Positions 175 through 62,657 of a stretch of 64,000 nucleotides of DNA are shown in pieces; position 1 is the stretch's first letter, and every line of letters starts with the position of its first letter. The DNA is taken from contig OZ024754.1 of NCBI GenBank assembly GCA_964016885.1, positions 46,004,001 through 46,068,000 of the forward strand, given 5' to 3'. This DNA is from Eledone cirrhosa (lineage: Eukaryota). The notes beneath the pieces were generated by a model, which ran no database searches, was not told the origin of the DNA, and was given only the letters and a program-made list of their open reading frames with translations. Position numbers and translations under genes: made by a program.

Positions 175-317
175 ATATACGATATTAATAAATGGAAACT
201 ATATTTATAAAACCATATTTATTTCATTATACATATTTCAAGGATACCAAGGATATCATGTATAATGAAATAAATATGGTTTTATAAATATAGTTTCCAT
301 TTATTAATATCGTATAT
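175..317. repeat. Perfect inverted repeat (60-bp arms 175-234 / 258-317, 23-nt loop), PLE pseudo-LTR-like fold-back
   Basis: atatacgatattaataaatggaaac...attatacat is the exact reverse complement of 258-317. The right arm continues unpaired to about 400 (tgtcgagtgctt...aactttt). (TA)n lies on both sides. Confidence 0.9.
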
Positions 318-745
318 CTACTCCAAATACTTGTCGAGTGCTTTATATCAGTTATAAAAATATTTACTTGTTGTATCCCAACAATTTAAATAGAACTTTT
401 GCATATATATATATATATATATATATATATAGAGAGAGAGAGAGAGAGAGAGAGAGAGAGAGAGAGAGAGAGAGAGAGAGAGAGAGAGAGAGAGAGACAG
501 AGAGAGACGTCGCCAATCTAGATATCTATGTGTGTTATAATATAAAGTTAGTATTTTAGTTTAACTAACAAATTATTGCAATCACTGTTTCATCAACTAG
601 AATCCTGCTTCTGGCTAGATTAACCGTCTGTGTTGTTGTACTTATCTCCTAGAGATAATCTTCATGTTTCTCCAGAAATTAACGTTCAGTAACACAATAG
701 TTATTGTTAACATATTCCAAAATATGTTGTATTAAACATTAAAAA

Positions 746-924
746 TTGGCACAAGGTTAGCAATTTGAGATTAAGTTGGTTGTACCGTCCCCAGTATTTA
801 ACTGGTACTATATGTCACCGAGCAAAGTTGAGATCAGAAAAATTTGAAATCAGAACACAGAAATTCGTAACTTAATACCACAAAGCATTTGGTCCGACAC
901 TCTACCGACACTGCCAATCAACCA
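746..924 (-). mobile_element. tRNA-derived SINE, main family (diverged copy)
   Basis: Shares ggcacaagg..agcaatt, cccagta..actggtact, aatttgaa.tcagaac (B-box, reverse) and ctctaccga..ctgccaat with the other copies in the window. Confidence 0.75.
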
Positions 925-3900
925 TTGCTAATAATAAAAATTGTTACTGTGATTATTATTATTTTATTATTATTATTGATGCTATATCTTTTTATTTGCC
1001 ACGAGAGCCAACAAAAGGGAGACAATACAGGGACAGTGGGGGTTTACACTGATATCGAATAGTATGAAATTTAATAATAATAATCGTTTCTTTGGTTGAA
1101 ACGGGCCTACGGGTGAGGAGTCATTAATAAGGATAATAATGGTTATTAAAATTAAAATTTCAATTAAAATTTCAATGATCATGATCATATTACGACGATA
1201 ATGATTAAATGTGATTTTAGTATTATTAGCAATAATAATAATAATAACAGTAGTAATAGTAGTAATAGTAGTAATGGTCGTATTGAAACTAATGGAGTTA
1301 TAATAAATTATATTGCAATGAACGAATGGAATTTCGATAAATTACGTTTTAATGTAAATAATAATGATGACGATAACGACAACGATGATGACGTGAATGA
1401 CGATGATGGTGATGATGATGATGATAAGGAGTAGTATGGTGGCGAGGATGATGGCGGTGGTGATGATGATGATGATGATGATAATGATGAAGATGATGAT
1501 GATGATAGTGGTGTGGGTGGTGTAATTGGAGTAAGAGAGTACAATAGTAATGATGATATTGATACATTAACAAAAACATACAAATAATAATAACAATAAT
1601 AATAATAATAATAATAATAATAATAATAATAATAAAAATAATAATAATAATAATAATAATAATAGAAAAAAATAATACTATTAACAATAATAATATCAAA
1701 TCAAACAATAATACCAATTACAACAACAATACCAAAACAAAAATTTCAATTCATATTAATTAATATTCATAGCAAGAAAATACAAGAATTATAATAAATG
1801 TATTTATATGAAAAAATTAATTTACAAAGAAAAATGGCAATTTTTTTGGTTTCACGAGGAACGAACGAAAATGGTAAATTGGAACAAAAATGAATGTCAT
1901 CTGATAGTATTTGGTTTGAAATATTTTGGGGGTTTTGTTTATGTACTTTTTTTTTAAGAAGCAAAATGGGTCTCTTTTTCTTGGAAAGAAAAAAGGATGA
2001 CATTAGAGGAGAAATGAAGGAAAGAAAACATGAAAAAATATATACATAATAAAAGATGGACAAAAAATATATATTGAAACAATGAAAGCTGGAAGAAGAT
2101 AAAGACAAGAAGAAACTTATAAAAATGTTTGTGTGAAAGTGAGATTTTTTTGTGGGAATGTATAGGTATGTTTGAATGCGTGTATCTGTGCGTGTCTGTG
2201 TGTGTGTTTGCATATGAGTGTATGCATGTGTATATGAGTGTGTGTTTGTGTTGTGTCTGGAAACGAAAAAATATAAAGAAATAAAGTGTAAAAAATAAAT
2301 CTATATAAACACAATGTGCTTGATATAACGTTACATTGCAGCAAAAAATATCGCTTACGATATGTTTTATTTCTCGAGGGAATTGTATAAGTGTATATAT
2401 ATATATATAAAGATATATATATATATATATATATATATATATATATATATATATATATATATATGTATGTGTTAATATGTATGTATATATATACATATAT
2501 ATGAAGATATATATATATATATATGTATATATACATGTACATGACATATACATATAAAATATATATACACATTATAATATATATATTATAATATATACAT
2601 TATAATATATACATTATAATATATATATTGTAATATATATATGCATAAATGTGTGTGTTTGTGTAACTGTGTGCATATATATATATATATATATATATAT
2701 ATATATATATATATATATGTATATATATATGCATATATATATGTATATATATATATATATATATATGTATATATATATATGTATATATATATATATATAT
2801 ATATGTATATATATATATATATATGAATATATATATATATATATATATGAATATATATATATATATATATGTATATATATATATATATATATATATAGGC
2901 AAATATGTCACTTTTGTCTAGAAGTAACAGTACTCGTTGTCCTTTTTTATGCTGTGTAAGGGTCCCTGTTGCATTAATGATAATTACAACAAGAACAACA
3001 ACAACAATTATGATGCTCCCTTAATTCGTCAATATGGCGTGGCATGAAAACAAAATAATGAAATAAAAATAAAAATAAAAGACTTTAAAACAAAAAAAGT
3101 TGGCAAACGGTACACACAAAAAATAATCGCAATCATAGTAGTAATAACTAAGCAGCAAATAATAATAATAATAATAATAATAATAATAATAATAATAATA
3201 ATAATAATAATAATAATAATAAATATTTTCTCCATTTTGAATGCAGAGGTTACATGTGTATGAAAAGAAAGAACAAGGTGACTTGGTGATATTTACAAAG
3301 GAAAAAAAATCGTTTCATTTTTTTTTCCTTATATTTTTCATTTTCATGTATTTTCCTGGTAGCTTTGTTAAGAAGAGAACACATCCTTATCCGACCAATA
3401 ATAAATTAACCACGCCTCTTCTTTCGGCTATTTACTGGGCTGCCAAAATACAATATCGATATCATTGACTTGGTATACTGAGAAATTGATTGATTGATTG
3501 TCTCTTCTTCTGATATAGAATATTGAATTATTATTTAGAAACAATCATTATTAAAATTATTATTATTACTATTATTATTATTATTATTATTATTATTATT
3601 ATTATTATTATTATTATTATTATTATTATTATTATTATTATTATAAAAAATTTTGATAAGAATAATGATAAGAATTATAATGATAATGATAATAATTATA
3701 GTAATGGTATTAATAATGACGATGACGTTGATGATGCTATCTTGTCATTAAGATAATATTATTATTATTTTGTTATTTTTTTACATTTCTTCTCCGTAAA
3801 AATATCCTATTTCTAATTTTGGCTTTGTCTGTTGTAAATTCCTTCTAAATACTTAATATGGCGGCCAGGCGTTTTCAGACTAGCTTTGAAGTTTATCACT

Positions 3901-61934: not shown

Positions 61935-61985
61935 TTTGAATGACCGGGTTCCGTATGAATCCGGTATATCATCAGGTATTCGAAA
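61935..61985 (-). ncRNA. Decayed hammerhead motif in a pLTR-like fragment (~61875-62250)
   Basis: Minus strand: gaatac-CTGATGA-tat-accggattc-ata-c-GGAAC-CCGG-TC-attc, followed by aataaa. GAAA box mutated. Confidence 0.5.
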
Positions 61986-62529
61986 TATAACAAAGGAATA
62001 TATAAAATCCATGGGTCCGAAAATCAGAGACAGAGAGGACGACTTACCAACTAGCTGCTTTCACCTCGGTCAGTCGCCCTCAAGTGATGGCAACTCGGTC
62101 TACTAATGACCATCTGGTGAGTGGGCGAAGGCTTATAATGTACTACCACCTCTCCGTCAGAGAATAAAAAGAGAAGAAAGAGAGAAAGAAAGAAGAAAAG
62201 TCAATGTAAGGGTCACACTACAGTCATGCTAGAAAACGCCGCGAAAAATGTTATTCCAAAGAACCTGTTTTAACAAAGGCATATATATGGGTGTCTGTAT
62301 GGTCTAATGTGTGAACAGAAAATTGGAACGTTAACTTATGTTAAGAGTTATAGGATGAAATTAAATTATTAGAAAATTAATAGAAAATTAAAGGTTTGTG
62401 TTGCGAGATTTATTTAATGAAATTACAGAGAGAGTCTTATATGAAAAAGTTTAAGTGTATTATAGGGAATTGACTAAATAAATATATATATATATATATA
62501 TATATATATATATATATATATATATATAG

Positions 62530-62657
62530 GTAAGTTATTCCGGGTTGAATCGGAGGTAACCACAGTAAGTAAGGTACTCAATACATAGCAGAGTATAAAA
62601 GTTTTAATATAGATGAGATTCTACAGGACTAGAACTGTTTCATTCTTTAGAAATCAT
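62530..62657 (-). mobile_element. Third copy of the 58.3-kb pLTR family, truncated inside the hammerhead core
   Basis: ggtaaccacagtaagtaaggtactcaatac...ctacaggactagaactgtttcattctttagaaatcat ends where atcatcag would continue. (TA)n on both sides. Confidence 0.85.

What the first reader, a model, noticed from the sequence alone, without database searches (positions are those of the whole stretch)
175..62657. Recurrent rule: pLTR fragments fold back or break at the hammerhead and sit at (TA)n
Seen: the hairpin at 19914-19995 has its apex where stem II of the 58.6-kb hammerhead lies (ttcatt-tgacgg-aatgaa). The copy at 62530-62657 is cut inside the CUGAUGA box. The hairpins at 175-317 and 23149-23296 turn just before a tGAAA-tatg-TA-taat(a/g)aaat motif that looks like a hammerhead 3' half. 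In the hairpins one arm extends to an element terminus at a microsatellite and the other is short. Inference: PLE reverse transcription stalls at the ribozyme structure and the cDNA self-primes via stem II, continuously seeding perfect hairpins into (TA)n. Six fold-backs in 64 kb would imply a very large genome-wide population of dsRNA or cruciform sources.
Basis: inference. Interest (0 to 1): 0.75.

Follow-up and report, generated by a model that had tools for sequence, protein, structure and literature searches.

The report
Penelope hairpins centred on transcript start
These mirror-image repeats are short insertions of Penelope-type jumping genes in TA repeats, and across five families their arm ends pile up at a likely transcription start rather than at the ribozyme, which suggests each hairpin is two separate DNA copies of one capped RNA joined head to head.

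Summary
The hairpins are real and belong to Penelope-like elements (PLEs). Each has one arm with a tail, one without, and (TA)n flanks, an architecture already in print. The four loci named do break in a hammerhead, but two other window hairpins do not.

Genome-wide, the rule is different. In four families with the hammerhead 60-90 nt inside the element, arm ends fall in it no more often than elsewhere (3.2 vs 2.5 per 1000 nt at risk, p=0.26). They pile up about 6-fold more in a narrow upstream zone (20.8). In three families that zone ends at the A of a TCA initiator, with a TATA box 30-31 nt upstream in two. Short copies often gain a G there, like a copied cap.

Single-strand self-priming is not supported: the tail-less arm reaches further in 44 of 100 hairpins, the tailed arm in 42. 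No RNA data tested the start site. The scan noted a centre beside a likely start once before, in another genome (e1-9054004). Roughly 350,000 hairpins genome-wide.

The parts
178..402 (+). Family C PLE stub: inverted tail-less arm (178-250), 7-nt junction, forward arm from hammerhead stem III (258) with tail to 402, between (TA)n arrays 54-179 and 403-431
19905..20071 (+). Family A stub: inverted arm, 6-nt junction in the 3' strand of stem II (about 19951-19956), forward arm with tail; older copy, arms 83% alike
23062..23296 (-). Family B stub: tailed arm on the minus strand (tail 23062-23148, at (TA)n 22968-23061), junction at 23219/23220 in stem II 3' strand, tail-less arm to 23296
45455..45499 (.). 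Small hairpin after (TA)n with a one-sided extension; family not assigned
46410..47640 (+). Family F coding PLE fragment: inverted piece 46410-46500 (copy of 46872-46962), ORF 46505-47197 with Cys linker and GIY-YIG motif, 3' region with hammerhead deleted, tail to (TA)n
47745..48399 (+). Family D hairpin (arms 97% alike), hammerhead cores at 47983 (-) and 48095 (+), apex 48035-48043 at the putative transcription start; the C at 48041 fits a copied cap but is shared with the forward arm
58251..58682 (-). Family A long-class hairpin: tail on the left, complete hammerheads at 58379 (-) and 58626 (+), apex 58513-58516, 122-134 nt upstream of the core; putative +1 at 58620 on the + arm
62530..62657 (-). 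Family A subfamily single arm with tail, 5' end inside CUGAUGA, (TA)n on both sides

Best explanation
The hairpins are insertions of endonuclease-bearing Penelope-like elements, most likely made from two separately primed cDNAs that copy the same capped sense RNA towards its 5' end and are then likely joined head to head. Inferred steps: the element protein cuts both strands of a (TA)n target. One strand primes at the tail end, the other at the internal start at the tail boundary. When priming is on the pLTR copy at the 5' end of the transcript, both cDNAs run off the cap after only about 70-270 nt, sometimes adding a C opposite it. Their 3' ends are joined bluntly, through microhomology or through short filler. 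Priming on the 3' pLTR copy reads through that position and gives the long class. The hammerhead is passed uncut and matters only where it begins at +1 (family A).
For: End rates per 1000 nt at risk, hammerhead vs start zone: B 3.7 vs 55 (n=46 arms), H 4.3 vs 38 (n=33), F 2.4 vs 10.9 (n=110), I 2.8 vs 18.8 (n=36). Family A: 61.8 in the start zone vs 6.7 in the rest of the hammerhead and 3.1 upstream (n=90). Pooled B, H, F, I: hammerhead vs other p=0.26; start zone vs hammerhead p=1e-15. The wall lies at the A of TCA in A (-6), B (-64) and H (-69), with TATAAAT 31 and 30 nt upstream in A and B. G precedes arms ending exactly there in 7 of 10 B+H arms vs 3 of 37 other short ends (p=0.0002). G stands in 42 of the first 100 of 4734 non-C matches in H (hand tally) and before 7 of 12 non-C family-C starts. 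100 of 106 same-family head-to-head pairs have exactly one tail; tail-less arm longer 44, tailed arm longer 42, equal 14. The commonest family-A junction occurs in both orientations relative to the tail. L277 joins a 920-nt tail-less arm to a 2.4-kb ORF arm with a different 5' end. Arms of one locus share non-consensus bases 3-4 times more often than arms of different loci. In vitro a PLE protein cuts and extends both strands, starts at two internal sites bounding the tail, and uses uncleaved RNA (PMC11167929).
Against: No RNA start was observed; +1 is inferred from motifs, the wall and the extra G. Zones were drawn after seeing the data, and F and I have no tested initiator. In family A the extra G is not above its G-rich control (4 of 7 vs 26 of 61, p=0.69). 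Several G cases in H are also templated by the partner arm. Shared arm variants fit snap-back or gene conversion equally well. Four of the window's own junctions lie in hammerheads. Four distinct F arms end at +31 to +35, near the predicted cleavage site, and a few A ends lie at +39 to +43. Samples are mostly the first places on contig C1, and a few duplicated loci remain in the counts. The 5' pLTR-ORF junction of a full-length element was not found.
Confidence: 0.72

Rival explanations
1. Reverse transcription stalls at the hammerhead and the single cDNA folds back and primes itself; self-priming is also hypothesised in PMC3846280, there on an antisense template.
For: Four window junctions lie in hammerheads. 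The family-A peak overlaps stem I and the core. 10 of 100 hairpins have the tailed arm longer with 2 or more nt of microhomology, e.g. L131 pairing TTTC with GAAA. Arms share variants.
Against: No hammerhead enrichment in B, H, F, I. 44 of 100 tail-less arms hold sequence absent from the tailed arm, 29 of them by 10 nt or more. Zero-loop junctions on the palindrome AGCT (14 pairs among the first 100 matches) cannot fold back. The 76-nt hammerhead region folds no better than shuffles (z=0.33). An extra G at +1 points to a sense, capped template.
Confidence: 0.08
2. Short non-autonomous hairpin or retrozyme-like units with inherited junctions are themselves transcribed and amplified, so the pile-up reflects a few master copies.
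For: One family-A junction recurs in 8 of 90 loci, and its mirror form in several more. No ORF was linked to family A.
Against: Junction sequences are otherwise diverse. The recurrent junction occurs in both orientations relative to the tail. Families B and F are contiguous with GIY-YIG ORFs. The same wall appears in single arms with no partner.
Confidence: 0.1
3. The wall is a processed RNA 5' end other than the start (splice acceptor or nuclease cut), or long palindromes were trimmed centrally after insertion.
For: Family A reads CAG at -7 to -5, and in D. virilis the intron end maps to the 5' end of helix I (PMC4209133). A minority of ends lie near cleavage sites.
Against: The walls in B, C and H begin ACTG, ACTA and ATAT, not after AG. 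No constant upstream exon precedes short arms. Random central deletion would give neither a one-nucleotide wall nor an extra G.
Confidence: 0.07
4. The hairpins are MITEs of a DNA transposon with TA target duplications.
For: Palindromic, short, very numerous, in TA context.
Against: Ends are asymmetric (one tail in 100 of 106 pairs). Centres vary from a few nt to over 900 nt. The same ends continue into RT plus GIY-YIG ORFs.
Confidence: 0.02

Closest known systems
Inverted-pLTR insertions of EN+ Penelope-like elements (D. virilis Penelope, Adineta Pen2a; PMC3846280, PMC8557442)
   Same: 5'-truncated copy with an adjacent inverted copy, one-sided tail, hammerhead in the pLTR, (TA)n bias; a TATA box plus TCACT initiator in the pLTR was noted for Pen2a.
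   Different: Tails here are about 45-100 nt rather than 30-40. Most copies are reduced to the two arms. The junction is shown here to pile up at the initiator with a G added, which argues against the proposed antisense self-priming.
PAc (Poseidon, Anolis) in vitro mechanism (PMC11167929)
   Same: Both strands cut and extended, two internal start sites bounding the tail, uncleaved hammerhead RNA as template, tail inside the ORF start (family F tail reads as an open frame).
   Different: In the parts read, that work addresses where copying starts, not where the two cDNAs end or how they are joined.
LINE-1 twin priming and the cap-derived extra G (PMC11702581, passages)
   Same: Two primers on one RNA, inverted arms, end joining with microhomology, extra G at complete 5' ends. 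A non-overlapping class exists here too (tailed arm stops near the tail boundary).
   Different: In L1 the two arms cover adjacent RNA segments. Here most arms overlap and both run to the RNA 5' end, which gives near-perfect hairpins.
Hydra clade (family B) and Neptune/Nematis-type linker (family F) of C-terminal EN+ PLEs (PMC8557442, section 11 and passages)
   Same: The family B ORF has a CxCX5C linker before the GIY-YIG motif. The family F ORF has CX4CxxC. Both sit in (TA)n.
   Different: No tree was built, so clade placement rests on the linker motif only.

Membership tests
EN+ Penelope-like element | ORF with RT followed by C-terminal GIY-YIG endonuclease | tested here: met
   Family F: RVT_1 E=0.0003-0.02 and GIY-YIG E=0.0004-0.002, in this order, all below Pfam cut-offs. 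Family B: contiguous ORF with Cys linker and YIG motif seen by eye; Pfam gave no hit on the 143-aa piece. Families A, C, D, H, I: no ORF link established.
EN+ Penelope-like element | Type I hammerhead in the pLTR | tested here: met
   CUGANGA...GAAA cores with stems in A, B, C, D, F, H, I; stem I covaries in A (AGCTT/AAGCT 26, GGCTT/AAGCC 12, AGATT/AATCT 7). The Rfam scan listed no hammerhead among the 150 of 333 rows shown. Cleavage not assayed.
EN+ Penelope-like element | Inverted 5'-truncated copy at the 5' end and a one-sided tail | tested here: met
   57 of 90 family-A copies; 100 of 106 pairs with exactly one tail
EN+ Penelope-like element | Insertion bias to (TA)n | tested here: met
   16 of 23 hairpins in evenly spaced regions touch (TA)4 vs 16% background; 76 of 90 family-A tails
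EN+ Penelope-like element | Direct pLTRs flanking a full ORF (partial tandem) | tested here: inconclusive
   12 long family-F copies were all 5'-truncated; the longest begins inside the ORF
EN+ Penelope-like element | RT phylogeny within PLEs, clade assignment | not tested
   No tree built; linker motifs only
MITE (class II) | Symmetric fixed terminal inverted repeats, no retroelement ORF | tested here: not met
   Asymmetric ends, variable centres, continuity with RT/GIY-YIG ORFs
MITE (class II) | TA target-site duplication | tested here: inconclusive
   Cannot be read inside (TA)n flanks
Non-LTR retrozyme | Tandem direct repeats, each with a hammerhead | tested here: not met
   Window copies are single or head to head
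Pol II start at the wall (mechanistic claim) | Capped RNA 5' ends at the initiator A | not testable with these tools
   No RNA run was available; indirect support from TATA spacing, TCA motif and extra G

The most novel reading that the evidence does not exclude
EN+ Penelope-like elements integrate as a general rule by double target priming on one capped sense transcript. Both cDNAs run off the cap like retroviral strong-stop DNA and fuse head to head, so hairpin apexes form a fossil map of PLE transcription starts. This overturns the antisense self-priming hypothesis and explains how about 350,000 near-perfect hairpins arise in one genome.
Probability: 0.55. Interest if true: 0.7.

Novelty: new variant of a known kind. 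Interest (0 to 1): 0.52.

Why it matters
How PLEs, the closest retroelement relatives of telomerase, form their inverted pLTR structures is named as an open question (PMC8557442), and the one hypothesis found in print is self-priming on an antisense template (PMC3846280). The junction statistics give a specific alternative that the existing in vitro PLE system can test directly. They also let PLE promoters be read from genome sequence alone. About one hairpin per 9 kb is a large potential source of dsRNA and cruciforms, though that was not tested.

Tried and rejected
Rfam scan: the 150 of 333 rows shown were microsatellite matches to miRNA and one snoRNA model. The repeat finder was swamped by (TA)n. 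One search was a mis-designed control (the letter set included the natural G) and is not used. One search timed out and was redone. Family C (201 rows) was dropped from the rate test: it has many subfamilies, repeated rows, and the 30 loci were selected for a 5' end at +42 by the query itself. Family D was dropped because 71 of 97 rows were family-F cross-matches and the rest were too few. Loci chosen by hammerhead-, ORF- or start-containing queries were excluded from their own family's rates (A: L001-036, L317-346; B: L067-096; H: L347-376; F: L187-216, L277-288) but kept in the pair counts. Five family-A arms stopped by indels were reset to 'long' from the BLAST. No ORF was found upstream of 11 long family-A copies, which end in microsatellite. 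Pairs of inverted copies 8 kb apart (L031, L032) held no PLE ORF between them and were unrelated nested insertions. Cross-family head-to-head pairs as proof of two RNAs: only 1 of 149, and that one is explained by an adjacent hairpin. Cleavage-site run-off as the main cause was rejected: few ends lie there. Assembly fold-back artefact was rejected by reasoning: arms differ by 2-5% on average and only one carries a tail.
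Full report
Setting. The window is G000:C14:46004001-46068000 in a 3.0-Gb animal genome rich in microsatellites. After masking short repeats, self-BLAST gives hairpins at 172-320, 19898-20011, 23149-23296, 45455-45499, 47745-48337 and 58323-58682. Hammerhead-like cores lie at 58626/58379 and 48095/47983. I label families A (19.9, 58.4, 62.5 kb), B (23.1 kb), C (0.2 kb), D (48 kb) and F (coding fragment, 46.5 kb); H and I come from fetched loci. 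Positions are relative to the C of CUGANGA.

Observation. The four named breakpoints do lie in hammerheads: A at about +15/+16 and at +4 (read), B at +31/+37 and C at +26/+42. Relatives confirm that the tGAAA-tatg-TA motif is the 3' half of a minimal type I hammerhead. The 48-kb hairpin turns about 55 nt upstream of its core and the 58.5-kb hairpin 122-134 nt upstream, so the window already holds exceptions.

What the elements are. Family F continues into an ORF with RT and then GIY-YIG (Pfam scores below cut-off). Family B is contiguous with a CxCX5C-linker ORF bearing a YIG motif in three loci (no Pfam hit). Exact 26-32-nt tail patterns occur 1073 (A), 6508 (F) and 491 (B) times. 57 of 90 A copies have an inverted arm, 49 of which stop at one boundary; 76 of 90 tails abut (TA)n. 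100 of 106 same-family head-to-head pairs carry exactly one tail. This is the published EN+ PLE architecture (PMC8557442, passages and section 11; PMC3846280, passages). It is not a MITE.

Where arms end. To avoid bias I took copies by patterns in the tail, in genome order, and mapped their 5' ends. In family A, 39 of 90 tailed arms end between +6 and -7 (61.8 per 1000 nt at risk). The rest of the hammerhead has 6.7 and the upstream region 3.1. Rates in hammerhead vs upstream zone are: B 3.7 vs 55 with a wall at -64; H 4.3 vs 38 with a wall at -69; F 2.4 vs 10.9 at -51 to -73; I 2.8 vs 18.8 at -71 to -95. Pooled, the hammerhead rate is 3.2 against 2.5 elsewhere (p=0.26) and 20.8 in the zones (p=1e-15). 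Zones were set after looking at the data, a few duplicated loci remain, and families C and D were left out for the reasons given under Tried and rejected.

What the wall is. In A, B and H the wall is the A of TCA (TCAGCT, TCACTG, TCATAT). TATAAAT lies 31 and 30 nt upstream in A and B; H has no such box. Family C subfamilies share TCACTA/TCACTG at about -88. Reading these as TATA box and initiator rests on recalled consensus; PMC3846280 notes TATA plus TCACT in a rotifer pLTR. Read-through copies have C before this A, whereas arms that stop there often have G. The counts are 7 of 10 in B+H vs 3 of 37 at other short ends (p=0.0002), 42 of the first 100 of 4734 non-C matches in H (hand tally; 43 T, 15 A), and 7 of 12 non-C starts in C. 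An extra G is the known mark of a copied mRNA cap in full-length L1 insertions (PMC11702581, passages). Against this: family A shows no excess over its G-rich control (4 of 7 vs 26 of 61; one search gave 36 G, 54 A, 10 T by hand tally, 28 of the A from AGCT palindromes). Some G in H can also be read from the partner arm. No RNA data could be tested.

One cDNA or two. Snap-back of a tail-primed cDNA requires the tail-less arm to be contained in the tailed arm. Among 100 pairs the tail-less arm reaches further 5' in 44 (29 by 10 nt or more), the tailed arm in 42, and 14 are equal; microhomology of 2 nt or more is as common in both classes (12 and 10). The commonest A junction appears in both orientations relative to the tail. 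Some loci join a tail-only piece to a tail-less arm complete to +1, and L277 joins arms with 5' ends over 1 kb apart. Arms of one locus differ less than arms of different loci (A 5.4 vs 8.0%, B 2.7 vs 6.0%, H 2.3 vs 8.1%) and share variants 3-4 times more often. That points to one template or source, but it does not by itself separate the models.

Mechanism. Shown: architecture, end distribution, motif positions, extra G in B, C and H, and arm symmetry. Inferred: cutting of both strands in (TA)n, priming at the tail end and at the tail boundary, run-off at the cap, and end joining. The first two inferred steps match the in vitro behaviour of the Anolis PLE, which also uses uncleaved hammerhead RNA (PMC11167929, parts 1-2 of 4 read). 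Short copies would come from priming on the pLTR copy at the 5' end of the transcript, long copies from the 3' copy. A minor route through hammerhead-cleaved RNA is possible: four distinct F arms end at +31 to +35 and a few A arms at +39 to +43.

Scale. Twenty evenly spaced 10-kb regions hold 23 non-microsatellite hairpins, 16 touching (TA)n against 16% background. That extrapolates to about 345,000 (218,000-517,000) genome-wide. Not all were assigned to PLE families.

Novelty. The elements and their layout are known. I found no report that PLE inverted junctions sit at the transcription start or carry a cap G in searches, which cover open PMC and bioRxiv only. Also consulted: PMC2377424, PMC4209133 and PMC7761336 (passages) and bioRxiv 10.64898/2026.07.22.740005 (part 1 of 5). 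No supplements were read. Earlier scan notes reported a centre beside a likely start (e1-9054004) and breaks at the ribozyme edge (e1-9303561) in other genomes, and outer-end signals in this genome. My start-site reading was noted before those look-ups, and a word search for the cap reading returned nothing.

Verdict. Observation partly confirmed, first interpretation partly supported. The real rule is the transcription start, not the hammerhead, and two cDNAs rather than one. Interest 0.52.

Noticed in passing
families B, C, I (references; e.g. L080, L109, L173): A splice-donor-like AGGTATG/AGGTAT lies 35-45 nt downstream of the putative start in B and C and upstream of the hammerhead in I, recalling the 5' UTR intron 46 nt after the D. 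virilis Penelope start (PMC2377424). All copies retain it.
   Followed up: no
window 47540-47640; L188-L216: The family-F tail reads as an open frame starting MTLPKYNNIGFN in intact copies, i.e. the tail is probably the ORF start. The window copy has lost its hammerhead by internal deletion.
   Followed up: partly
L031:8346-8582, L055, L062, L192, L380:9294-9393: An abundant family with no CUGANGA core seen also forms hairpins, turning repeatedly near GGACTAGTCC; a natural ribozyme-free control for the start-site rule.
   Followed up: no
window 48048-48056 and 47412 region; families D and F: AAGATGGCG, resembling a YY1 site (recalled), sits just downstream of the end pile-up in D and F.
   Followed up: partly
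window 13057-13156, 22319-22448, 23299-23463, 29727-29883, 54802-54964: A dispersed SINE-like repeat of about 165 nt, one copy directly abutting the family-B hairpin.
   Followed up: no
window 13342 (-), 19665 (+), 41891 (-), 54206 (+): Further single hammerhead-like cores, probably from other PLE families.
   Followed up: no
L394:7366-9999; L214:495-1384; L191: Much longer near-perfect inverted repeats (0.9 to over 2.6 kb) also occur, probably the long class of the same process.
   Followed up: no
L031, L274, L139-L179 loci: Different PLE families stack in the same (TA)n arrays, giving nested clusters of arms.
   Followed up: partly
window 5098-5477, 5491-5644, 23833-24212: A 380-nt dispersed repeat, 95% alike, flanked by (ATAC)n arrays.
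   Followed up: no
window 33038-33237: A 200-N assembly gap.
   Followed up: no
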